From Naegleria gruberi (lineage: Eukaryota): a stretch of 64,000 nt of DNA. The notes below the pieces were generated by a model that worked only from the letters and a program-made list of their open reading frames with translations, was not told where the DNA came from and made no database searches. Position 1 is the stretch's first letter, and each line of letters opens with the position of its first letter. The translations under genes were made by a program, and so were the position numbers. The stretch lies in assembly GCA_000004985.1 (NCBI GenBank), contig GG738929.1; one strand, given 5' to 3'. Shown here piece by piece: positions 30,874 to 60,687 of the stretch.

Positions 30874-31141
30874 AATTATTGATTTACATGAATTCTATAT
30901 TATGACTACACTTCAATTCTCTAAAAAGGTTGGTAGAATCTACAACATGAACAGTTCATATCCAATCGTGCTTGCTAATTGAGTATCTACTTGGGAGTTG
31001 GTTATTAATCTCTTGACTAGATGTGTATCTTTAGAATAAATATTANAACCATACTTTCCATCTTTCTGAATAGATTCATACTTGATAGCATATTCATCAC
31101 CAAGAATAGTTTCTGAGAGAGGCCTTTCACTTTCTATCTGG

Positions 31142-31725
31142 NNNNNNNNNNNNNNNNNNNNNNNNNNNNNNNNNNNNNNNNNNNNNNNNNNNNNNNNNNN
31201 NNNNNNNNNNNNNNNNNNNNNNNNNNNNNNNNNNNNNNNNNNNNNNNNNNNNNNNNNNNNNNNNNNNNNNNNNNNNNNNNNNNNNNNNNNNNNNNNNNNN
31301 NNNNNNNNNNNNNNNNNNNNNNNNNNNNNNNNNNNNNNNNNNNNNNNNNNNNNNNNNNNNNNNNNNNNNNNNNNNNNNNNNNNNNNNNNNNNNNNNNNNN
31401 NNNNNNNNNNNNNNNNNNNNNNNNNNNNNNNNNNNNNNNNNNNNNNNNNNNNNNNNNNNNNNNNNNNNNNNNNNNNNNNNNNNNNNNNNNNNNNNNNNNN
31501 NNNNNNNNNNNNNNNNNNNNNNNNNNNNNNNNNNNNNNNNNNNNNNNNNNNNNNNNNNNNNNNNNNNNNNNNNNNNNNNNNNNNNNNNNNNNNNNNNNNN
31601 NNNNNNNNNNNNNNNNNNNNNNNNNNNNNNNNNNNNNNNNNNNNNNNNNNNNNNNNNNNNNNNNNNNNNNNNNNNNNNNNNNNNNNNNNNNNNNNNNNNN
31701 NNNNNNNNNNNNNNNNNNNNNNNNN
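31142..31725. other. Assembly gap (584 N)
   Basis: Run of n characters. The + strand ORF 31082-31864 across it is an artefact. Confidence 0.99.
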
Positions 31726-32693
31726 TATGAAGATACTATGTTATAGCTGGATGGCTCTCCTTCAAAAATTCCTGTTCTCAATAGAGTATCTATTCTATTG
31801 TTTCCATTATCAGAACGATATTCCAGACACCACTTTACCAAGTCCAAATTTCCAATCCAAATAGCCAAGAATTGAAACGTAAATTCTGTTGAGAAAATTG
31901 GGATAAACTCCTCCCTTTCAAAATTCTTTCCTTTGGACAATTGATTCACGAATTTCATGCTTGTTACTTGTAATCCAATAGTATTTTCCAAAAAATCACA
32001 TACCCAAACAGCAGCATTGATTTCACTATTTAAATATTTGATTTTCATACCTGAAAGGTATTGCACAATCCAGATCAAGTATTGTCTCGGAATTAAACTA
32101 CTATTGAAATAGTCCACTTCAATCCAATGACTTACCAATGGTAGGGACATGTACTCATCATTGGCTAAAAACTCTGCTATATTCATATTAAAAACATCAC
32201 TCGGTTCAACAACCTTCTCAACATTTTGATTATCCCCAATAATTGATCCAATTAATTTCAACATGGGCTCAAATAATTTGTCAAACAAATACCTAATACA
32301 TGCCGATACTCTAACTGATCCAAAATATGAAAGATTATCCTCTCCGATGGCCAATCTAACAAGAAACTTTATAACCATATTGTCTGGAAATTCCACCAAT
32401 TGATCAATCCAACCCTTGGTAATTGTAATAAAATCATCCTGTTCAATTATTCCTGTATAACCACCTTGTGTTCTTGTACGCAATTCTAAATCATGAAGCC
32501 AAATATGTAATTCAAAACCAGCAGCTAATTGATTCCTCACCAAATGCTTCCAAAATACCTCCGTCTCAGTAATGTGGTAGAATGATGTACAAACCGATCG
32601 AAATTGGAAAATATTATTGTGAAGATGATACGGATCGTGACTGTATGAGGTGATGTGTAATAAAATTTCGGAAGGCAAATCAGTAAGGATCAT
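31726..32693 (-). CDS. F-box domain protein, N-terminal about 322 aa visible; the remainder runs into the 31142-31725 gap
   Basis: ATG at 32693. The N-terminus LTDLPSEILLHITSYSHDPYHL...FRSVCTSFYHI fits the F-box consensus (LPxEIL..I..YL ... VCK.W). The ORF is open to the gap edge. Confidence 0.55.
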
Positions 32694-33988: not shown

Positions 33989-36900
33989 ATGAATAAGTCG
34001 TCATCTAAAAAAATGGAACAAGCCACCAGTTCTGAACCCACAGCAAACAAACAGTTTCGTGCTTACGTTACACAGCAAATATCTTCAATTCCAACAGCAT
34101 CACCAACATGTGCCAACTTTGCTGAACAACAAGATGTAGAAGAAGATCATGACTATCACACAAATGTCAACATTTATTGCCCTCATTGTAAATCATTTTT
34201 CTGTGAAAACTGTCATTCGTTATGTGTTTATTCTTCCTTGGAATCCAACAGTAAAATTCCCATGTCAAAAAAGAAAACAGTACAGGCCGAACATTTAAAA
34301 CATCAGTGGAATATCAATGAGGATTATCAACAAAATATCCAACAAGATGTGATGCAATTATTCATCGTTACGAACAATCTGGTTAGTATGATACAACGAT
34401 GGACAAATGACACAACTAACGTCAATCTACAGGACATTATTGACCAATACGAATTATTTAAAACAGCCACAAGCAAACATATCATCACTCCCTATTTCAA
34501 TAGAACATTTTTAGAACCGCTGACCCCTATTTGTGAAAAAATTTCTATTTTCCACAAAGCACAAGAACAGGTCAACAAATTCTCTGAAATGTTTAAAAAA
34601 TACAATAACAAAGCTCTTGATATAATGGATAGCTTTACTTTGGCTTCCACTGAAATGCGATCATTTTGTAAATCATACCTTAAGATTTCTAATGACAAAA
34701 TGGAGGAATATTTATCTCTAGCAAACACAGCAGAAAAGCTTAAATGGAATGCCATTAATTCCAAAAATCCAATGAAGTGTTGTGTTGTGGGAATTACTAA
34801 TTCTGGTAAAACTACTTTAATGAATGCAATTCTTGGAATGAACCTTTTGCCAAGTAAGGAAGGGAGATGTACAATTGCTAATACAGAATTAAGATATGCA
34901 GATTATGATAAACGTAAAATTGAAATCAAGGAAGAACATGGTACTTTCAACACACTTTCTCAATTTACTTCAGAGTATCTGATGCAACATGAATCAATTC
35001 CTGAAGAAGTTGTATCTACTTTTGGTGTTTCTGAAAAAACCAAATCAGAACAGAAGAAGGATAGAGAATCTCAAAAAACTATAAGAGTTCATTGGGATTC
35101 TCTCTTGTTAAAAACAGGAATAGCCTTTAGTGATACACCTGGATATGATGATATTTATGAAGAGGAAGTTTTATTCAACACTTACAAAAGACAATCAAAG
35201 AAAAAAGCTTTGCCTAAAAATGTAATGGTCAACCCTCAAACATTAGAATTTATTCAAGAATCTGAACTTGTTATTCTAGTAGTTGATATTAATCACACAT
35301 ATACTTCCAAAGATGCTGTTCTAAACTTGTTGGACATTGATGAATTAAAAGGCAAACAAATCATGGTTGTGATGAATAAGTGTAACATGTTTGGAAGTAT
35401 TGGAAAACGTGAAGACAGAGGTTGGGAAAGTTTCATTCACTATTGTGAAGAATATGAAAATACAAAAACTGCATCATCACCTCCATTATTATTACAATTT
35501 TACAAAATGGTAAACAATACTCATGAAAAAGCTAGAACAACATTTGAAGCATGTCTGCTTAATCATATTGATATGATGAGTACAAAAGGTATTTCTGTAA
35601 ACCAAATATATCCATTATCTGCTATGGAATCCCTTTGTTGTAAAGTAGAAGGAACTGAATTGGATTTGCCGTTCACTCTATTTGAAAAAGCACTATTTAA
35701 TATTATGGAAGATATTACAAAGAAGCGTATGTCTAATTTTGCTTCTGTTGCACACTTTTCAGTCAATACATTCCTGAGATCAACTTTGCTATGCAAAAAT
35801 TGGCATGTAAAGATGTATCAAATGCAACTCGAAAAGAAAAAACAACTGGAGGACATATCAAGTCTTGTTGAAAAGTTCAGAGAACGAATTCAACAAATTA
35901 TTCAAGATTTAAGGCAGGACATTATTGAAGTTTTTGAGAGAACATCGAGTCAAAGTAGTTCCAAGAAAATTGAAGAAGCCATGCATATTATTCACACAAA
36001 AGTTTCTGTTGAATTTAAAGAATTCTTGAAGGAACGTATTGCACAAGATCCCAAGTTATCTGTTTCAGATTGGGCCTACATAATTTCCATAACAATATTT
36101 GCAATTCCTATTTCAATAATTTTGCTTGGTATTGCGGTTCTATTAGTCCCAGTGTTGATGCCTATCATGTTTCCATATGTAATGGTAAAAACAATTTTGG
36201 ACATGGTAACAGATTTAAAAAAGAAAAAGAAGAGCAATATTATTGATGAACTAGTTTATAAAAGTGAGAGAATTCAAGTAAGTGAGGAAGAATCAGATAG
36301 TGCTGAAAACGATACTGATGACGTTCCAGAAGTACTCTCCACAACATTATTGGCTCTTGATTCACAAAATCTAGATGTAAATCAAGTCATCCAAAAGATA
36401 ATGCAGAGTTATCCTGATATGTTTTGTCTAGAAATTGAAAAGCATCTAATATCTAAAGTTGAAAATGAGTACAACGACAAACTGAAAACATTTAACTTTG
36501 TACTTTGTAAAGATGGGAAAGAATTAGCATTTTTTAATGCCTGGAAAGAGTTTCAAAAAGATCAGAATGGATGTGAACAGCTTTACAATTACTATTGCAA
36601 GACTTCATCTTTGTTTTTTGATATTAACACAAAATTTTCACTTTCAAATTTGAAATCTTTTGAATTTTGTGGACACGGAGCATTTGGTAAAACCTATCGT
36701 TTAAATAATATTACTGCAATCAAGTATATTTCTACAATTAAGCTTGCTGAACATATTTTAGATAGAGAACTATTTTATAATTCACAACTTTCACATGCAC
36801 ATATTGTTAAAAGCATGCTAATTAAAAAGGAAGAAACTGAAAACGCTTTAAACGGTTACATTTATCAAGAGTATCTCCCACAAACTCTTTCACAATGGGC

Positions 36901-37483
36901 TCTGAACAAACCAATTAACTATAAGAAAGCTCTTAGATATGCTTGTGAAATAGCACTTGGTATGAAATATATTCAATCTTGTAATATCATGCATAGAGAT
37001 TTAGACAAGTCAAACATTATGATTGACAAATTTGATCATATCAAAATTATTGATCTAGGTGTAGCAAAAGAAATGGTTGATAATGCACACACAGCAAATC
37101 AAGGAAAATATAAAACAATGGCACCAGAAGTAAAACGCTCTGGATCTGACTTTGCAATTTATGATTTTAGATGTGACGTTTATTCCTTCGGAATAGTGGT
37201 TAAAGAATTGCTTGATGGTTATGACAGTAGTGAAATTTCATTATTATTAGAGAGATGTTTGGAGAAAGATTTTAAGAATAGAATTGGTGATTGGAATGAA
37301 ATAATATTTACTTTATATAAGAGTTATGAGATGTATGAATTAGATGTGGAACCAACTGAATATTCTAACCAATTGAAAATTGAGGTACAGGAAGTTCAAG
37401 AAGAATCACAAATTGATATTGAGGTATTGAAAAAGGAATTGAAAGATAAGAAAATCATACCAAAAAATTGCATTGTGCAATAA
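33989..37483 (+). CDS. Multidomain protein: C4-type zinc finger, dynamin-superfamily-like GTPase, coiled coil, hydrophobic hairpin (about 38 aa), Ser/Thr protein kinase
   Basis: The likely true start is ATG at 33989 (MNKSSSKKMEQ...); the 29 codons upstream in the track ORF are low-complexity. Zinc-finger-like motif: CPHCKSFFCENCHSLC. GTPase: P-loop VVGITNSGKTTLMNAILGMNLLPSKEGRCT (dynamin/mitofusin-like G1 and switch I), G3 DTPG, G4 NKCN. Hydrophobic hairpin: WAYIISITIFAIPISIILLGIAVLLVPVLMPIMFPYVMV. Kinase: GHGAFGKTY glycine loop, AIK lysine, HRDLDKSN catalytic loop, DLG, APE, DVYSFG. Single uninterrupted ORF of 1164 aa. Confidence 0.75.
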   Translation: MNKSSSKKMEQATSSEPTANKQFRAYVTQQISSIPTASPTCANFAEQQDVEEDHDYHTNVNIYCPHCKSFFCENCHSLCVYSSLESNSKIPMSKKKTVQAEHLKHQWNINEDYQQNIQQDVMQLFIVTNNLVSMIQRWTNDTTNVNLQDIIDQYELFKTATSKHIITPYFNRTFLEPLTPICEKISIFHKAQEQVNKFSEMFKKYNNKALDIMDSFTLASTEMRSFCKSYLKISNDKMEEYLSLANTAEKLKWNAINSKNPMKCCVVGITNSGKTTLMNAILGMNLLPSKEGRCTIANTELRYADYDKRKIEIKEEHGTFNTLSQFTSEYLMQHESIPEEVVSTFGVSEKTKSEQKKDRESQKTIRVHWDSLLLKTGIAFSDTPGYDDIYEEEVLFNTYKRQSKKKALPKNVMVNPQTLEFIQESELVILVVDINHTYTSKDAVLNLLDIDELKGKQIMVVMNKCNMFGSIGKREDRGWESFIHYCEEYENTKTASSPPLLLQFYKMVNNTHEKARTTFEACLLNHIDMMSTKGISVNQIYPLSAMESLCCKVEGTELDLPFTLFEKALFNIMEDITKKRMSNFASVAHFSVNTFLRSTLLCKNWHVKMYQMQLEKKKQLEDISSLVEKFRERIQQIIQDLRQDIIEVFERTSSQSSSKKIEEAMHIIHTKVSVEFKEFLKERIAQDPKLSVSDWAYIISITIFAIPISIILLGIAVLLVPVLMPIMFPYVMVKTILDMVTDLKKKKKSNIIDELVYKSERIQVSEEESDSAENDTDDVPEVLSTTLLALDSQNLDVNQVIQKIMQSYPDMFCLEIEKHLISKVENEYNDKLKTFNFVLCKDGKELAFFNAWKEFQKDQNGCEQLYNYYCKTSSLFFDINTKFSLSNLKSFEFCGHGAFGKTYRLNNITAIKYISTIKLAEHILDRELFYNSQLSHAHIVKSMLIKKEETENALNGYIYQEYLPQTLSQWALNKPINYKKALRYACEIALGMKYIQSCNIMHRDLDKSNIMIDKFDHIKIIDLGVAKEMVDNAHTANQGKYKTMAPEVKRSGSDFAIYDFRCDVYSFGIVVKELLDGYDSSEISLLLERCLEKDFKNRIGDWNEIIFTLYKSYEMYELDVEPTEYSNQLKIEVQEVQEESQIDIEVLKKELKDKKIIPKNCIVQ

Positions 37484-41112: not shown

Positions 41113-43141
41113 TTGTATACATGGCTGGTTCAGTTAAAATCCCAACTAATCCCCTCGCAACAATTTTCCTTTTACGAAAAAGGAACAATGCTGATTCCTC
41201 ACGAAAAGAAAGAAGTTGCACTCAACCTTATTCAAGATTTTCTCCAATCTCGAAAATTCGTTCGAATCAAACTGGTAGCTCAATTTATAGGAAAGCTGGA
41301 ATTCGCCTCTTTAGCAGAACAATACATAATGCCTCTGTTAAACAGATTACGAGTTTCAGTAGTAGGATGGTCAGTCTTTATGCTCATCAACAGAGGCCCC
41401 ATGACGGACCTAATAAGATTAAAGTCCATCATTTCAAACTCAAAAGGTTCTCTCCTAGATCTAAATCAACCTTTCCCAATTATAATCAATTCAGATGCTT
41501 CTCCTCAAGGATAAGGTGTCCACTCCTCAAACACTGTTATTATAGGAAGATTTCACACCCACGATCATATCAATTCGAAAGAAATGATGGCAATTCTTCA
41601 ATTCTTCATCGAAGCAAAATCACAAAAGCTCTTCCCAAGAGGAACCTATTTCGAGATAAGGTGGACAATTCAACTGCCTTCTCATACATAAGAAAAGGAT
41701 ATGGAACTTTCGAACACCTCGCTCAAATAGCAAGAAAAATTTGGAAAATTCTAATAGAATGTTGCTGGAGAATTGCAAAAGTAATTTACATTCCCTCAGA
41801 GAAAAATTCAATTGCAAACAAATTAAGCCTTTTAAGCGATTGGAAATCATCACCAGAATTGATAAATATGGTAGAAAAAGAATTCGGAAACCACACCATA
41901 GACAGATTTGCAACATCAGAGTCAGCAACAACGATCCATTTCAACTCTTTGTTAGAAAACGATGCGTTTCAAGAACTTTGGGAACAAAACTCAATCAATT
42001 ATTGTGTTCCTCCAATAGGTCTAATCCCACAAGCTCTATTTCACTTGATCCGATCAAAGGCCATAGGAACATTCGTAGTTCCTTATTGGCCAACAGCTTA
42101 CTGGTTCCCGATCTTGCTAAAGATATCTTTAGAACAGATACGTGTTCCGCTCCAATGGCTTATAACAGAGCATTACAACGAACTGCACAAACAATCAGAC
42201 AATATTTCGTTCATGGCGGTCAAAGTGAATGGAATGCTCAACTTTCAATGAGATGTCAGGCTTTATCTACTGCTCTTGCAGAATCGACAAAGTATTCAGA
42301 ATTTTCTTATTTCTGTCTACTCCATAATTTAGACAAATCAGATGTTAGAGCCCCAGAATTATTCGCTTGCTATCTTGCGGTTCACAAGAAGCTCTACAGA
42401 TTGAATAGTTTGAAACCTACGTTGGATTTCTATTCAAATTTGGAAGGATGGTCCGTAAATTATTCTAATCAATTCTTTAGAATCAAACAAGGTTTGAATA
42501 AGTTTTATTCACGAGCCGATATTGTTAAACATAAGAGAAGTGGAATCTCTGCTCTCAATGTCAAGCAATTCATTGATAGGATCTCTATTAAAGACCCTTA
42601 TCTTCACATGTTGTCTTGTGCCATACTTTCCGTTGGCATTAGATTATTAGCAAGACCTGGTCAACTGGCTAATTTATCATGGTCTTGTGTTAAACTTGAT
42701 ACTCCTTTTATCGGTTGGGTTACTTTTGATCTTTCTGGTCACAAAACAGACCAATTATCTGACATGAAGAAACTCCTATTGAACCATAAAGAGGAAATAA
42801 GAAATACTGTCCAGTTTATAACCTTAGAAGATATGGATTATGTTAAACATATTAAGGAAGACGATTCTCCATTATTTTCGTTACTGTTTGATGAATATTT
42901 CACTCCTACTCAAATTTCTAATATTATTTCAAGCCCCATGAGCTCTATTGGTGTTCAAAACACTTCAGGCCATAGCCTTCGTATAAGTGCAGCTACTAAG
43001 CTGGCTTCTAAGGGTGTGTCTCAATCTATGATTGAGACAGCTGGTAATTGGGTGCCTAATTCAAAAATTAGATTGAGATATCAACGTAGAATTGGCCTAG
43101 CTACTCATGGTTTAACTACTTCTATTATGAGAACTGATTAA
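41113..43141 (+). mobile_element. Remnant (3' half) of a DIRS-like tyrosine-recombinase retrotransposon: RNase H and YR domains spread over three reading frames, so a pseudogene
   Basis: In frame 1 the ORF ends ...IIINSDASPQG (RNase H DAS motif). In frame 3 it continues ...VDNSTAFSYIRKG...IPSEKNSIANKLS (RNase H TDN / IPGxxNxxAD.LS motifs). In frame 2 there is a C-terminal tyrosine recombinase: GIRLLARPGQLANLS (Arg box), GHKTD (Lys), HSLRISAATKLASKG (H-x-x-R), GNW, RLRY (nucleophile Tyr). At least two frameshifts separate these pieces, and no RT or gag ORF is detectable upstream. Confidence 0.6.
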
Positions 43142-43901: not shown

Positions 43902-43951
43902 NNNNNNNNNNNNNNNNNNNNNNNNNNNNNNNNNNNNNNNNNNNNNNNNNN
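43902..43951. other. Assembly gap (50 N)
   Basis: Run of n characters. Confidence 0.99.
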
Positions 43952-44009: not shown

Positions 44010-45029
44010 TTATCGATCTTTATGCTTTTCAAGATAGGCATTGGAAATTGCTTTGAAACTAAATTTACCATCCAATCTCTTGAATACTAAACCTTCTCTT
44101 TTGACATTCTTGTTCAAAGATGGCCCATCAGCCATTGCCAAAATCTGCTCTGCTGTATGATTCAATTCCAAATCATCCAAAATTGGGACATGTTTGACAG
44201 TGAATCCGTTATCATTCAATTGCTTCACCAATGATTGTCGTTCAATTGGTGTCAAATACTGAGCCTTATCAATATCATAAATATCAAACAAGTAAAAATC
44301 TTGACCTTTCAATTTTTCCAAATTTCCTTGAATTGATTCTCCAATAATTTCACCTTGTAGGGCCAAATTTCTATTTAAAAATTGTAATCCTTCAATCATT
44401 TTGTTTCTCCTAGCAGCATGCCATTGTGCATTAGTTGCAGTTTCTCTCAATTCCCAATTTCTTCCACATACACCAATATGGTCATCTTTCCTATATACAG
44501 TCATTGATGAGCCATCCAATTTCACAGTCACTTCAAATTTTTGACCCTTATTTTCTTCAATTTGTGGAATTAAGTTTTGTACACGTTCCTGATCTGTCTT
44601 ACTAATAAAAGTTGGAAATTCACCCAAAATTTCACCAGAAAGATTAGTGGAAATTGGTGGTTCCCACTTTGTAATTCCTAGAATTTCTGTAACATCATCA
44701 CCCACTTGATTGGAAGCCAATTCTGGGAATCTATCCATTGGCAAGAACAACCCTTGGCTCAATTGACCTCTCAACCTAGCAGTACGAAGACGAGTACCTC
44801 TTTGACCTTCATAATCAATAACTTGTTTTGAAAGCATTGGATACCTATCATTATCTTCCTTTATAAAACTATCAATTTCAAAATAGACTCCCCTATCACC
44901 TTGTTTAAATTCTCCCTTCTTGATCACACAAGTCCAACCATCAACATGGCAACATTCAATAGCTTCTGCACCTGCAATAGGAGTAATTTCTCCTGCAGTA
45001 CGAATAGTAGCAAGTTTACGTACACCCAT
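44010..45029 (-). CDS. ATP-dependent RNA ligase, Rnl5 / DraRnl-like family (339 aa); probable orthologue of Naegleria gruberi NgrRnl
   Basis: ATG at 45029-45027; the track start at 45053 is a TTG. Covalent nucleotidyltransferase motif I KLDGSS, with Lys at residue 170 counted from the ATG. Motif IV/V-like EGLVFKR. A distinct N-terminal domain precedes the NTase domain. Length and active-site lysine position match what I recall for NgrRnl (339 aa, K170). Intronless. Confidence 0.8.
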   Translation of the reverse strand: MGVRKLATIRTAGEITPIAGAEAIECCHVDGWTCVIKKGEFKQGDRGVYFEIDSFIKEDNDRYPMLSKQVIDYEGQRGTRLRTARLRGQLSQGLFLPMDRFPELASNQVGDDVTEILGITKWEPPISTNLSGEILGEFPTFISKTDQERVQNLIPQIEENKGQKFEVTVKLDGSSMTVYRKDDHIGVCGRNWELRETATNAQWHAARRNKMIEGLQFLNRNLALQGEIIGESIQGNLEKLKGQDFYLFDIYDIDKAQYLTPIERQSLVKQLNDNGFTVKHVPILDDLELNHTAEQILAMADGPSLNKNVKREGLVFKRLDGKFSFKAISNAYLEKHKDR

Positions 45030-45288
45030 AGTGTTATTATTATTATTTAACAATTATTAAAATAAATAATATTATTGGATAATATTATCTCCGGTCTCTT
45101 AGAGTTTTTAAAAGCAAATTGAAAATAAATTCCTTCTTGCTGATGGATTTTTTTTTAAGTTTGAAAATAAAAATGTTCCAAGTTCTCCTGAAATCAGTTA
45201 AATTGAATTTGTGTTTCTCCTTGAAATTGCACTGTAGCTCTAAGAGAGCATATATTACAATGTTAATGTGAGTTCATCAATATATTCT

Positions 45289-57611: not shown

Positions 57612-57657
57612 CTGTTTAAATTCAAAATATTAGTTCTTCAATACTAAAATAACATAC
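57612..57657 (-). other. Spliceosomal intron (46 nt) inside the kinase domain
   Basis: gtatgttattttagtattgaagaactaatattttgaatttaaacag. GTATGT donor, ACTAAT branch-like element, CAG acceptor. Removing it joins ...KVCDFG to LSKIVSTNSMKQSIFTMTLGTLFYMAPE in frame, restoring kinase subdomains VII-VIII. Confidence 0.7.
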
Positions 57658-60600
57658 ACCAAAATCACAAACTTTTGCCTGTCCTGTCGCATTAATGAGA
57701 ACATTTGCTGGCTTTAAATCTCTGAGTAAATTATCAATTAATAAAACAATTGATACAGTAAAAACTAACCTATGAATTAATTTTGGTTTCAATCCATGTA
57801 AATATTTCATACCTGAGGAAATGTCCAATAATATTTGAGCTTTTTGTGAAAGTGTCAGAAAATCTTTTCCACTTCTACAGTCATTGATAATCTTCTCTAA
57901 ACTTCCTCTTTCGCAATATTCTACAACCATGAATCTCTTTGACTCGGTTATACATACTCCGTAGAAAGTGACAATATATGGATTTCTTAAATTTACAAGC
58001 AATGAAACCTCCCTTTCAAAATCCTCTCCATTAGTTTCATTTTCCTCTGATTTTTGATGGAACGACTTGATAGCTACATTGGTAGTCTCCCAACATTTTG
58101 CTAAAAATATGGAACCATAAGCTCCCTCTCCAATTTTCTTTTCTATTTTCAAGTCATCTGAATTAATGAGAAAGTTCATTGACTTTTTGTTCTTTATGAT
58201 TGAATCTTTTGGATCGTAATTGATTCCATAATTTTTGTGAAATTCAGACTTTAAAAGTCTTTTTTCAATATCCTCTTCAGCTTTTTCAAGCTTTTTTAAT
58301 TTTTTAAGTTTGTCCTTAATTTTCCACAATTTCCTAAAAGCAAAAGTTATTAATAATCCAATTATTATACCAGATATAAGAGCTAACAATACACCAACCA
58401 CCGACGTTGATATGAGAACCTCCATAGGAAATGAAGGAGCACACACACCTTCTTGAAGGGAATATCCATGAGGACATGGTGTAATTATCACAGTAATTGG
58501 TATAGATCTGGAAGTAATTTTCAGTAGTATTGGAAACTTGGATTCACTAGGTTGAGATGGTGCCTCAGAAAATGAAATATTGATACCATTATCTATGATA
58601 CTGTAGTCACATTTTGGTATATAGAGAGATGAATTTGAGATAGGTTCTATATCCTCTCTGAAAATATTTACCAAATTTCCATAATAATCTGCTGATTTCA
58701 AAATTTCAATTTTAGCATATTGACCTAAATGCAAATTAAGTGTGGCTGAATTATTAGTAGCAACCAAGTATTTTCCATCAATTCCAAAGTAGGTAGTTTG
58801 AATAGCATAAATAAATTGTATAGAAGATGCCATGTTATCTCCATAAAAACCAGCAGAATTATTTTTCAAATCTGTACCATCGAAATAACCATTTATAGAA
58901 AACACGCCTCCGCCAGCTATCTTTGCATGATTTCCCTCAATGAAACTCTTGGCATCTACAAGCTTTCTATTATCGTTGCTTGTGAATACAGCTCCTCCCC
59001 AAACAGCATAATTTCCTGTCGCGTTCACATTGTAAAATGTAATTATGCTCCTGAGTGAGATAGCGCCTCCAGATCCCTCACACGAGTAGAATCCTTTACA
59101 GTAGCTTTTATCAATATTAGGGTAATGGTTGATTCCATTGTCTCTAAATACTGAATAGGTAATTTGTGAGTGAGAATAATCATTTGAATTTGGGAAAACA
59201 CTGACCATAGCCACAGCCCCTCCTGATATTGTAGCTACATTCGAGACGAATGTTGAACGATCTATAGATAACATTGTTGAATCAGAAACTGCAACAGCTC
59301 CACCACTTCCATTCACAGCACTGTTACTGTCAAATATAGAATCCGCAACCACAAAGAATTCAGAGTCAACAAATACCGATCCTCCATTATCATTTGATAT
59401 CTGGTTGTCTAAAAATCTGGAATTACCAATTTTTGCACTTGAAGCGTCAATTAAATGTACAACTCCACCAATATTACCTGTTGACTCACATTCATCCATT
59501 ACAAACTCATTAACTCGTTCTACGAAAAGTATCCGTGTTTTAGCAGCATTTCCAATTATTTTGACTCTTGATATTGATACGTCGGATGTGTACTTTAGAG
59601 AAATCCAACCTCTACTTAGATTTAACGCCTGACAGTTATCCAATATTATGTTTAAAATCATTTCTGCATAAATTAAAAATGGTTTTTTACCTATAAGTAG
59701 TTCACCGTTTTCTCTTGAAGAAATGAATTTAGAGCCACTAATGTCTGTTTTCTGTATTGAGCTAAGCTTTAGAATACTGATGGAAGGATTACTATCAATA
59801 AATACTAGATTATTCATTTGTAAATGGTCAACATTTAAAATAGTCCAAATGGTACTAGGAGGATCGTTTCCATTTAAAATCATACTATTTAATATTTTCA
59901 CATTTGTCACTATATTGATAGATCCAGAAAGACCTTTCAGATATGATTGATCTATTATAACTCCGCTAGCATATTTTATATAAAAAAGACATGATATCAA
60001 TGTAGAATTATAGACATGTAGTTTTTGTGAAGTAATTCCCACGTTGGTAAGATGGGAGTTTGTCACAAAATTAAGATCCGCTGTTAATGATTGTAGGGAA
60101 AGCTTGTGAAAATTTGTTAAAGATATTAAGTTTAAATTAAATTCACCATCAGTAGAAAATAGAATAGCATTAATATCAGGGCATTTGTAAGTGAATATTC
60201 GATTTCCAAATGATTTAAACTCCAGTTGAATGGCCACATTGTTGGAAATTACTGCAAAGTTTGACTTGAAAAACAAATCTAATCCGCAATTTTCAACCAA
60301 ATTCTTATCAAAATCATCAAGTATAAATATATTGGCTGTAAAAACCATTTTCAACTTGTTCGTAACTAATTCATTCCAATTTAACAAAATTTCATTTTCA
60401 ATTATTGGTTTCAAAACATATCGAAATGCTAATTTGGGATTATTACACGGAATATCCATCTGTAAACCACATTTGAAGGGTGGATTTAAAAAAGATGAAT
60501 TTAAATATATCGTAGTATTATACTCCTTTTCCGGCTTGTTGTTTGATCCTATTGTTTTTAATTCTCCTCCTCCACCTCCGAATAAAACATCAGTGTTTTC

Positions 60601-60687
60601 CATCGTGTCCACCAATTGTAATTTTAAATAAATCATCAAAATGATGAAAATAAAATTCGATAAATATGAAGAGATACTTTGAGGCAT
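57658..60687 (-). CDS. Receptor-like protein kinase, exon 1: signal peptide, Pmp-type (GGA[IV]/FxxN) parallel beta-helix ectodomain, TM segment, and the kinase N-lobe up to DFG
   Basis: ATG at 60687, hydrophobic N-terminus. At least 7 GGAV/GGAI/GGSV/GGGV tetrapeptides together with FxxN motifs (FLDN, FDSN, FVSN, FRDN), as in chlamydial polymorphic membrane protein repeats. TM segment VVGVLLALISGIIIGLLITFAF. Kinase: IGEGAYGSIF, VAIK, HRDLKPANVLIN, KVCDFG. The exon ends at GGT and is followed by GTATGT. Confidence 0.75.

What the first reader, a model, noticed from the sequence alone, without database searches (positions are those of the whole stretch)
33989..37483. A dynamin-like membrane GTPase fused to a protein kinase in one ORF
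A single 1164-aa ORF contains four parts in order. First, a Cys4 zinc-finger-like motif. Second, a GTPase whose G1/switch I (GITNSGKTTLMNAILGMNLLPSKEGRCT), G3 (DTPG) and G4 (NKCN) look like dynamin-superfamily membrane-remodelling GTPases (mitofusin, atlastin, BDLP). Third, a roughly 38-residue hydrophobic hairpin like that of mitofusins and atlastins. Fourth, a complete Ser/Thr kinase domain (GxGxxG, AIK, HRD, DLG, APE). ROCO/LRRK proteins join a Ras-like Roc GTPase to a kinase, but I do not know of a described dynamin-like GTPase plus TM hairpin plus kinase arrangement. The hairpin would put both enzymatic domains on the same side of a membrane, which suggests GTP-gated kinase signalling at an organelle or the plasma membrane.
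Basis: partly seen in the sequence, partly recalled or inferred. Interest (0 to 1): 0.6.

Follow-up and report, generated by a model that had tools for sequence, protein, structure and literature searches.

The report
Membrane-anchored dynamin-like GTPase fused to kinase
A single Naegleria gruberi gene joins a bacterial-dynamin/mitofusin-type membrane GTPase, a hydrophobic membrane hairpin and a protein kinase; this domain combination appears in no paper we could search, and no close relative turned up in any database searched.

Summary
Window 33989-37483 (+) is one uninterrupted 1164-codon ORF, identical to the uncharacterised N. gruberi protein XP_002669235 / NAEGRDRAFT_82185.

- **Membrane segment:** The 39-residue uncharged run (aa 695-733) sits where the BDLP membrane paddle sits.
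- **Kinase:** The C-terminal domain has every catalytic motif and looks TK/TKL-like.

- The G4 motif is NKCN, so the guanine-specifying Asp is Asn.
- The kinase lacks about 29 residues around helix alphaG.
- No profile supports the Cys cluster as a zinc finger.
- The protein ends in a CaaX box (CIVQ) after a Lys-rich stretch. That would be a second, cytosolic membrane anchor, and it favours the hairpin topology.

The gene is an orphan: no close relative was found among 1.84 billion representative proteins, viral contigs or metagenomes. The domain order is not unique, however. A protist transcript (dynamin-like + pseudokinase + patatin) and a mussel protein (dynamin-like + kinase) share it.

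Function is only inferred. I rate this a new variant of known kinds, of moderate interest.

The parts
33989..37483 (+). Whole ORF, 1164 aa plus stop. Equals N. gruberi XP_002669235.1 / NAEGRDRAFT_82185; the NCBI model starts at Met9, position 34013.
34148..34225 (+). Cys/His cluster aa 54-79 (H54, H57, C64, H66, C67, C72, C75, H76, C79). Possible small metal-binding module, unverified.
   Evidence: Sequence. Only sub-threshold IBR and nanos hits, E 0.19-0.52.
34319..34729 (+). N-terminal helical region aa 111-247, four long predicted helices before the G domain. Possibly part of a neck bundle as in BDLP and mitofusin (inferred).
   Evidence: Secondary structure of both AF2 models; pLDDT 54-82 for aa 100-200.
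34772..35413 (+). Dynamin-type G domain aa 262-475, with a long insert between switch I and G3.
34790..34816 (+). G1 / P-loop GITNSGKTT, aa 268-276.
   Evidence: G and K are invariant in alignment A4.
34871..34873 (+). Switch-I Thr295 within LLPSKEGRCT.
   Evidence: Invariant column T196 of A4, which is aa 295.
35132..35143 (+). G3 DTPG, aa 382-385.
35375..35386 (+). G4 NKCN, aa 463-466. The Asp of (N/T)KxD is replaced by Asn466.
   Evidence: Aligned with NKWD, SKLD, NAWD and NKID in relatives.
35414..36070 (+). Helical trunk/stalk region aa 476-694.
   Evidence: Predicted long helices at low confidence. The PDB profile alignment to Campylobacter DLP1 extends into this region.
36071..36202 (+). 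Hydrophobic hairpin or paddle aa 695-738, WAYIISITIFAIPISIILLGIAVLLVPVLMPIMFPYVMVKTIL.
   Evidence: It falls in the same alignment columns as the BDLP paddle and the hydrophobic segment of P0038. The distance from the P-loop is conserved: 427 aa here versus 452-475 in bacterial DLPs.
36218..36232 (+). Polybasic KKKKK aa 744-748, directly after the hairpin.
36233..36640 (+). Acidic linker plus predicted helices aa 749-884. Candidate return helices, analogous to mitofusin HR2 (inferred).
   Evidence: Secondary structure (pLDDT below 50); no Pfam hit.
36641..37318 (+). Protein kinase domain aa 885-1110. Carries GHGAFG, K912, the alphaC Glu, HRDLDKSN, DLG, APE, DVYSFG and the subdomain-XI Arg. Lacks about 29 aa around alphaG.
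   Evidence: Pfam Pkinase 92 bits. PDB matches are TK/TKL and PknB-like kinases at about 1e-14. Gap shown.
37319..37468 (+). C-terminal tail aa 1111-1160, acidic and then Lys-rich (KKELKDKKIIPKN).
   Evidence: no Pfam hit.
37469..37483 (+). CaaX box Cys1161-Ile-Val-Gln plus the TAA stop. Predicted prenylation (farnesyl-type) site.
   Evidence: Sequence. Chance expectation for a strict CaaX at a C-terminus of this composition is about 5e-4. The modification itself was not tested.

Best explanation
This is a real, single-exon N. gruberi gene for a membrane-anchored dynamin-like protein of the BDLP/mitofusin class, with a TK/TKL-like protein kinase fused to its C-terminus.

**Shown**
- One ORF.
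- A dynamin-type G domain.
- A strongly hydrophobic 39-44 residue segment at the position of the BDLP paddle.
- A kinase domain that keeps all catalytic residues.
- A C-terminal CaaX box.

**Inferred topology**
- The hydrophobic segment inserts as a hairpin.
- The G domain, stalk and kinase all face the cytosol.
- The kinase is held flat on the same membrane between the hairpin with its KKKKK stretch and a prenylated, Lys-rich C-terminus.

**Inferred mechanism**
- In BDLP and mitofusin, nucleotide binding drives G-G dimerisation and an open/closed stalk movement.
- The kinase follows the helices that would fold back toward the G domain. That movement would bring two kinase domains together, or release one from the stalk.
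- Kinase output would then report or control membrane tethering or remodelling.
- The reverse is equally allowed: the built-in kinase phosphorylates and tunes the dynamin-like part.
For: - **ORF and identity:**
- **Dynamin family from sequence:** Pfam Dynamin_N 63 bits with no Roc, Ras or GBP hit at E<=1. All 52 remote hits from an exhaustive search are Dynamin_N proteins, and the ones looked up by name are bacterial dynamin family proteins.
- **Dynamin family from profiles:** hhalign 99.3% to BDLPs. PDB profile search gives BDLP 1.9e-19, Campylobacter DLP1 9.8e-14, MFN1/2 about 1e-13 and Fzo1 3e-10.
- **Hairpin:**, and it shares alignment columns with the BDLP paddle.
- **Cytosolic C-terminal side:** KKKKK after the hairpin and a CaaX box at the end.
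- **Kinase:**
- **Native origin:** base composition and GC3 match neighbouring genes.
- **Fusion is real:** the same domain order occurs in two unrelated eukaryotic sequences, one of them transcript-like.
Against: - No orthologue or paralogue exists to show that selection maintains the fusion.
- No expression data were available.
- The G4 Asp is Asn, so guanine-nucleotide binding may be weak or altered.
- The kinase lacks the alphaG region and has an odd catalytic loop (HRDLDKSN), so it could have low activity or be a pseudokinase.
- The structure model is poor outside the G domain (mean pLDDT 53, below 50 from aa 700 on). The stalk, hairpin geometry and return helices are therefore not established.
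- The model's alignment consisted of dynamin-like proteins, which could bias the fold searches.
Confidence: 0.5

Rival explanations
1. It is an ordinary ROCO/LRRK-type protein, a Ras-like Roc GTPase plus kinase, misread as dynamin-like.
Against: - No Roc, COR, Ras, LRR or ankyrin Pfam hit at E<=1.
- Dynamin_N scores above its cut-off.
- All 52 remote homologues are Dynamin_N proteins.
- No Roc, LRRK or Ras chain appears among the 60 shown PDB profile hits.
- The insert between switch I and G3, and the hydrophobic paddle, are BDLP/mitofusin features.
Confidence: 0.02
2. It is a conflict or immunity-type dynamin-like protein. Here the GTPase recognises or coats a foreign or damaged membrane, as GBP, IRG and Mx do and as bacterial DynA and Leo do. 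The C-terminal domain is then an effector or alarm module rather than a housekeeping regulator.
For: - The gene is a lineage-specific orphan, as is typical of fast-evolving defence genes.
- The nearest same-order protein, P0038, carries a pseudokinase plus a patatin phospholipase. The patatin matches CBASS-type phospholipase effectors at 1.4e-42.
- The other analogue comes from a bivalve.
- There are weak matches to the Leo bacterial dynamins of PADLOC.
Against: - The PADLOC kinase and Leo hits are generic family similarity.
- There is no genomic clustering, no paralogue expansion in the window and no induction data.
- A permanently anchored hairpin plus CaaX differs from recruited soluble GBP/Mx-type proteins.
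Confidence: 0.15
3. It is a decaying or non-enzymatic lineage-specific fusion. One or both domains would be pseudoenzymes acting only as a membrane scaffold, or the gene would be barely functional.
For: - G4 Asp is replaced by Asn.
- The kinase is missing about 29 residues around alphaG and has the non-canonical loop HRDLDKSN.
- No orthologue was found anywhere.
- The analogue P0038 has a clear pseudokinase, HRGL with no Gly loop.
Against: - A 3.5-kb ORF intact in 32% GC DNA has a chance probability of about 1e-40.
- The P-loop, switch-I Thr and DTPG are all intact.
- The kinase Lys, Glu, HRD Asp, Asn, DLG Asp, APE and subdomain-XI Arg are all intact.
- The CaaX box and polybasic stretches are retained.
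Confidence: 0.2
4. It is a gene-model artefact: two adjacent genes, a dynamin-like protein and a kinase, that only appear joined.
For: No transcript evidence could be examined. Residues 741-884 match no profile.
Against: - There is no stop codon anywhere in 1164 codons, including the 144-residue linker.
- The NCBI model is the same single exon.
- The transcript-like contig of P0038 carries dynamin-like domain, kinase and patatin on one message with UTRs.
Confidence: 0.03

Closest known systems
Bacterial dynamin-like protein BDLP (Nostoc punctiforme, PDB 2J68/2J69/2W6D) and relatives (Campylobacter DLP1/2, SynDLP, IniA)
   Same: - It is the best sequence, profile and fold match for the G domain.
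- The switch-I motif LLPS...CT is the same.
- There is an insert between switch I and G3.
- A helical region follows the G domain.
- A hydrophobic membrane-inserting segment sits 400-475 residues after the P-loop.
   Different: - This protein is eukaryotic.
- It has a 260-residue N-terminal extension with a Cys cluster.
- Its hydrophobic segment is far more hydrophobic, rich in Ile/Leu/Val/Phe rather than Gly/Ala.
- Its G4 is NKCN.
- It adds a C-terminal kinase and a CaaX box.
- Similarity beyond the G domain is not statistically established.
Mitofusins / Fzo1
   Same: - A membrane-anchoring hydrophobic hairpin leaves both ends in the cytosol, followed by helices (HR2). This comparison rests on textbook knowledge.
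   Different: - There is no Fzo_mitofusin Pfam hit, so it is not an orthologue.
- No kinase or CaaX is known in mitofusins.
- Its organelle is unknown.
ROCO proteins (LRRK1/2, Dictyostelium Roco kinases)
   Same: The logic is the same: a GTPase and a TKL-like kinase in one chain. The kinase is proposed to be controlled by nucleotide-dependent dimerisation of the G domain.
   Different: - The GTPase belongs to a different superfamily branch, dynamin-type rather than Roc.
- There is no COR domain and no LRR or ankyrin repeats.
- This protein is integral to the membrane rather than recruited.
Unnamed eukaryotic proteins found here: P0038 (transcript-like contig, JGI sample 3300016959) and P0062 (Sinanodonta woodiana ACJMK2_016777)
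   Same: - Both have Dynamin_N followed by about 450-500 helical residues and then a kinase-fold domain.
- Their G domains are 27-29% identical to this one (E 6e-11 and 2e-8).
- P0038 has a weak hydrophobic segment in the same alignment columns, ending V.KTI[LF] like ours.
   Different: - P0038 has a pseudokinase plus a patatin phospholipase and no strong transmembrane segment.
- P0062 has a full-length, active-looking kinase and no hydrophobic segment.
- Neither has a CaaX box.
- Both keep the G4 Asp.
- The kinase domains are not specifically related to ours, so independent fusions are possible.
Human DSTYK (RIPK5) - a lead only
   Same: The layout is similar: a long N-terminal region followed by a C-terminal kinase.
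   Different: - The alignment is statistically insignificant (2.4 and -2.8 bits).
- The sequence came from memory.
- No paper links DSTYK to dynamin.
- The AlphaFold-database fold search that could test this was unavailable.

Membership tests
Dynamin superfamily (Pfam Dynamin_N, PF00350) | Large G domain scoring above the curated family threshold. | tested here: met
   63.2 bits against a cut-off of 27, aa 265-464 covering profile positions 2-167 of 168. hhalign 99.3%. PDB profile search gives BDLP at 1.9e-19.
Dynamin superfamily (Pfam Dynamin_N, PF00350) | G1 GxxxxGK[ST], switch-I Thr and G3 DxxG. | tested here: met
   GITNSGKT at 268, T295, DTPG at 382. All are invariant columns in A4.
Dynamin superfamily (Pfam Dynamin_N, PF00350) | G4 (N/T)KxD with the guanine-specifying Asp. 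| tested here: not met
   The motif is NKCN at aa 463-466, with Asn466 in place of Asp. Relatives have NKWD, SKLD, NAWD or NKID.
Dynamin superfamily (Pfam Dynamin_N, PF00350) | Helical stalk or bundle after the G domain. | tested here: inconclusive
   Long helices are predicted for aa 478-690 but pLDDT is mostly below 60. Only the Campylobacter DLP1 profile alignment runs past the G domain.
Dynamin superfamily (Pfam Dynamin_N, PF00350) | Nucleotide-dependent G-domain dimerisation and stimulated GTP hydrolysis. | not testable with these tools
   Needs biochemistry.
BDLP/mitofusin clade of membrane-anchored dynamin-like proteins | Hydrophobic paddle or transmembrane hairpin inside the helical region, with helices after it. 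| tested here: met
   There is a 39-residue uncharged run at aa 695-733, 427 residues after the P-loop. The distance is 452-475 in bacterial DLPs, and the run falls in the same alignment columns. Helices are predicted after it.
Mitofusin/Fzo orthologue | Fzo_mitofusin C-terminal domain, and closest similarity to mitofusins. | tested here: not met
   No Fzo_mitofusin hit at E<=1. The best hits are bacterial dynamin family proteins.
ROCO (Roc-COR-kinase) | Roc domain (PF08477) followed by a COR domain. | tested here: not met
   [not shown]
Atlastin/GBP branch | GBP-type G domain (PF02263) with an RD-type G4. | tested here: not met
   [not shown]
Eukaryotic protein kinase superfamily | Pkinase profile above threshold, plus catalytic Lys, alphaC Glu, HRD Asp, catalytic-loop Asn and DFG Asp. 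| tested here: met
   Pkinase 92 bits against a cut-off of 31.7. K912, the Glu of LDRELF, D1004, N1009, D1022 (as DLG), APE at 1045 and the subdomain-XI Arg are all present.
Eukaryotic protein kinase superfamily | Complete C-lobe, helices alphaF through alphaI. | tested here: not met
   There is a gap of about 29 residues between alphaF and alphaH relative to a PknB-like kinase. Pfam and PDB alignments stop at profile position 193 of 263, which is query residues 195-209 of 284.
Eukaryotic protein kinase superfamily | Ser/Thr versus Tyr specificity, and phosphotransfer activity. | not testable with these tools
   HRDLDKSN fits neither consensus. The best PDB matches mix TK (Lck, Src, EGFR), TKL (ZAK) and bacterial PknB-type kinases.
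CaaX-prenylated proteins | C-terminal Cys-aliphatic-aliphatic-X. | tested here: met
   The protein ends CIVQ-stop, with a chance expectation of about 5e-4. Prenylation itself is not testable here.

The most novel reading that the evidence does not exclude
Dynamin-like proteins with a C-terminal kinase-fold domain form a recurrent but unrecognised class of eukaryotic signalling machines, seen here in Naegleria, a marine protist and a bivalve. In this class the nucleotide-driven dimerisation or stalk movement of a membrane-remodelling GTPase is read out directly as phosphorylation. That would make it a membrane-integral counterpart of ROCO proteins, possibly used in membrane-contact sensing or cell-autonomous defence. 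In Naegleria the Asn at G4 might additionally mean the switch runs on a nucleotide other than GTP.
Probability: 0.2. Interest if true: 0.7.

Novelty: new variant of a known kind. Interest (0 to 1): 0.5.

Why it matters
Dynamin-superfamily proteins are known as mechanochemical membrane remodellers, and kinases normally regulate them in trans. A protein that links a BDLP/mitofusin-type GTPase covalently to a kinase on the same membrane face would be a natural experiment. It could show how G-domain dimerisation and stalk movement couple to an enzymatic output, which is the same open question as in LRRK2 but on a different GTPase scaffold.

It also adds a BDLP-like protein to a discoban lineage. 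No mitofusin has been identified in the discoban Andalucia (PMC7050145).

The practical limit is that the gene is an orphan, so any function must be found experimentally in Naegleria.

Tried and rejected
- **Single-sequence AlphaFold2 of the full protein:** mean pLDDT 36, unusable.
- **AlphaFold2 with a 14-sequence alignment of aa 100-880:** only the G domain reached moderate confidence. I did not use it for hairpin geometry or stalk packing.
- **afdb50 fold search:** the library was unavailable. The DSTYK idea and a search for eukaryotic structural analogues could therefore not be run.
- **Word-indexed homologue search of the full protein:** only itself plus weak bacterial kinases.
- **Exhaustive phmmer of aa 1-880 against 1.84 billion representatives:** only itself below 1e-10.
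- **Profile search with alignment A2:** only bacterial dynamins.
- **Viral contig scan:** nothing.
- **BFVD fold search:** giant-virus dynamins at the same generic level as any dynamin-like protein, so no sign of viral origin.
- **Metagenome scan:** only 22-36% identical G-domain matches.
- **Second kinase ORF in the window (57622-60687, minus strand):** not a paralogue.
- **Literature:** ten searches found no paper on a dynamin-kinase fusion, on this accession, or on DSTYK as dynamin-like.
- **PADLOC hits:** judged to be generic kinase and dynamin similarity, not evidence of a defence system.
- **Recent horizontal transfer or contamination:** rejected, because GC and GC3 match neighbouring genes.
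- **TSKD at about aa 440 as an alternative G4:** rejected, because it aligns to the region after strand beta4, not to G4.

Full report
**1. What is there**

The window is Naegleria gruberi DNA at about 32% GC, with large N gaps. From the ATG at 33989 to the TAA at 37481-37483 runs one open reading frame of 1164 codons on the + strand. With the local base composition, a stop-free run of that length has a probability of about 1e-40.

The product is 100% identical to the database protein XP_002669235.1 / EFC36491.1 / UniProt D2W2Z3 / NAEGRDRAFT_82185. That entry is annotated only as 'predicted/uncharacterized protein', and its single-exon model starts at Met9 of this ORF. GC and GC3 of the ORF, and of each of its domains, match neighbouring genes, so nothing suggests contamination or recent transfer.

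**2. The GTPase is dynamin-type, not Roc/Ras**

- **Pfam.** Dynamin_N covers aa 265-464 at 63.2 bits (cut-off 27), spanning almost the whole profile. With the E-value limit at 1 there is no Roc, Ras, COR, LRR, GBP or Fzo_mitofusin hit.
- **Single sequence against PDB.** The best hit is Nostoc BDLP at 8e-7, followed by mitofusin-1.
- **Exhaustive search.** A phmmer run of aa 1-880 against 1.84 billion representative proteins gave only the protein itself below 1e-10.
- **Remote hits.** The same search gave 52 weak hits confined to the G1-G3 region. All 52 are Dynamin_N proteins. The ones looked up by name are bacterial 'dynamin family proteins'.
- **Profile comparisons.** A three-sequence profile matches Nostoc-type BDLPs by hhalign at 99.3% probability, E 7e-21.
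- **Profile against PDB.** The same profile hits BDLP at 1.9e-19 and Campylobacter DLP1 at 9.8e-14, with an alignment that runs into the stalk. It hits MFN1/2 at about 1e-13 and Fzo1 at 3e-10. No Roc or LRRK chain is listed.
- **Structure model.** An AlphaFold2 model of aa 100-880 from a 14-sequence alignment is only moderately confident in the G domain and poor elsewhere (mean pLDDT 53).
- **Foldseek on that model.** The top hits are mitofusin-1 and BDLP at about 1e-10.
- **Caveat on the model.** The alignment used to build it consisted of dynamin-like proteins, so the fold result is supportive rather than independent.

**3. Motif detail**

G1 (GITNSGKT, 268), the switch-I Thr (T295, in the BDLP-type motif LLPS...CT) and G3 (DTPG, 382) are intact and fall in invariant alignment columns.

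G4 is NKCN (463-466). The Asn and Lys align with the NKWD, SKLD, NAWD and NKID of relatives, but the final Asp is Asn. From established work on Ras D119N and EF-Tu D138N (my knowledge, not tested here), this change lowers guanine affinity and can switch specificity to xanthine nucleotides. 'GTP-gated' is therefore an open question.

**4. The hydrophobic segment**

Residues W695-V733 form a 39-residue run with no charged or strongly polar residue. Its maximum Kyte-Doolittle 19-mer score is 2.86, and summed Hessa-scale values are negative for 19-mers starting at 695-710. It is the only such segment in the protein.

It lies 427 residues after the P-loop. The corresponding distance is 475 in Nostoc-type BDLPs, 452 in a Desulfovibrionaceae DLP and 459 in P0038. 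MAFFT places it in the same columns as the BDLP paddle sequence.

The run is too long for one membrane span and about right for a tight hairpin. Several features make a single-pass topology implausible:
- There is no N-terminal signal peptide.
- KKKKK follows the segment directly.
- Both flanking enzymes need cytosolic nucleotides.

The protein ends ...KKELKDKKIIPKN-CIVQ-stop, a canonical CaaX box after a Lys-rich stretch. The chance expectation is about 5e-4. Prenylation is a cytosolic modification, so this places the kinase side in the cytosol and suggests a second membrane attachment. All of this is inference from sequence, and I could run no dedicated topology predictor.

**5. The kinase**

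Pkinase scores 92 bits over aa 893-1077. Present are GHGAFG, K912 (in AIK), the alphaC Glu, HRD (D1004), N1009, DLG, APE, DVYSFG and the subdomain-XI Arg.

The closest solved kinases are a mix of TK (Lck, Src, EGFR), TKL (ZAK) and bacterial PknB-type, at about 1e-14. The catalytic loop HRDLDKSN fits neither the Ser/Thr nor the Tyr consensus.

Alignments stop after alphaF. Alignment with a PknB-like kinase shows a gap of about 29 residues where alphaG should be. The domain is probably catalytic, but it is not 'complete' and its specificity is unknown.

**6. Other parts**

- **Cys/His cluster.** The cluster at aa 54-79 gets only sub-threshold IBR and nanos hits (E 0.19-0.52).
- **N-terminal helices.** Residues 111-247 are predicted as long helices.
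- **Linker.** Residues 749-884 are an acidic linker plus helices with no profile match.

By analogy with BDLP and mitofusin, these helices could form the neck bundle and the return (HR2-like) helices. This is not shown.

**7. Distribution**

No orthologue or paralogue was found in any of these searches:
- the 5.8-billion-cluster word search;
- the exhaustive representative search;
- a profile search;
- viral contigs;
- metagenome contigs, which gave only 22-36% identical G-domain matches.

The other kinase ORF in the window is unrelated.

The domain order does recur:
- **P0038.** This 1534-aa product sits on a transcript-like 4.9-kb contig with UTR-like ends. It has Dynamin_N (275-465), a weak hydrophobic segment (738-756), a pseudokinase (HRGL, 962-1200) and a patatin phospholipase.
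- **P0062.** This protein from the mussel Sinanodonta woodiana has Dynamin_N (132-288) and a full kinase (725-989) with no hydrophobic segment.

Their G domains are 27-29% identical to the Naegleria one. The kinase domains are not specifically related, so independent fusions are possible.

No paper in the searchable library describes any of these proteins or this accession.

**8. How it most likely works**

- **Shown:** the domain inventory and its order.
- **Inferred:** a hairpin-anchored, cytosol-facing dynamin-like protein. Its kinase is pinned to the same membrane between the hairpin with its polybasic stretch and a prenylated polybasic C-terminus.
- **Proposed:** nucleotide-driven G-G dimerisation or stalk opening, as established for BDLP and mitofusins, changes kinase proximity or accessibility.

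In that scheme, phosphorylation would report or control tethering and remodelling. The converse, with the kinase regulating the dynamin-like part in cis, is equally allowed.

Confidence by level:
- about 0.9 that the architecture is real and dynamin-type;
- about 0.6-0.7 for the hairpin, same-side topology;
- about 0.3 for the gating mechanism itself.

Rivals:
- a conflict or immunity-type dynamin-like protein, supported mainly by orphan status and by the patatin effector of P0038;
- a partly pseudo-enzymatic scaffold, suggested by the G4 Asn and the alphaG deletion;
- ROCO, rejected;
- a gene-model artefact, very unlikely.

**9. Verdict**

The functional reading remains hypothetical and needs the corrections above. 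This is a new variant built from two well-known families. It is present but unannotated in public databases, and it has two newly noticed analogues. Interest is moderate at 0.5. The architecture is unusual and mechanistically suggestive, but it occurs in an orphan gene of an organism with abundant lineage-specific multidomain kinases, and I have no functional or conservation evidence.

Noticed in passing
window 37469-37483: The target protein ends in a CaaX box (Cys-Ile-Val-Gln-stop) preceded by KKELKDKKIIPKN.
   Followed up: partly
window 35375-35386: The G4 motif of the GTPase is NKCN. The guanine-specifying Asp is Asn, whereas all close analogues keep Asp. Nucleotide specificity may be altered.
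   Followed up: partly
L001 175-4779 (protein P0038, JGI sample 3300016959): A transcript-like eukaryotic contig encodes Dynamin_N, a pseudokinase and a patatin phospholipase in one 1534-aa protein. The patatin matches CBASS-type phospholipase effectors at 1.4e-42.
   Followed up: partly
protein P0062 (Sinanodonta woodiana ACJMK2_016777): A mussel protein with Dynamin_N (132-288) followed by a full, active-looking kinase (725-989). This is an animal example of the same domain order. A remembered human DSTYK sequence aligns weakly, and not significantly, at its P-loop.
   Followed up: partly
window 41113-43141 (+): Overlapping ORFs carry an RNase-H-like DASPQG motif, a weak Dam-like methyltransferase hit and a weak tyrosine-recombinase hit. 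This looks like a degraded DIRS-type retrotransposon. The 3.6 kb between it and the target gene has no ORF over 100 aa.
   Followed up: no
window 44010-45053 (-): An ORF with RNA_ligase (4e-31) plus the phage-type PHA02142 OB-fold domain (2e-29), which is a virus- or phage-style RNA ligase in a eukaryotic genome.
   Followed up: no
window 57622-60687 (-): A second large ORF (1021 aa) has a C-terminal kinase whose catalytic loop is interrupted by an in-frame, intron-like insert (HR...DLKPAN). Its N-terminal part is unrelated to the target.
   Followed up: partly
window 837-28929, 31142-31725, 43902-43951: Runs of N (assembly gaps) occupy 28 kb of the window. The ORF at 31134-32693 (-) with an F-box-like N-terminus runs into one of them.
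   Followed up: no
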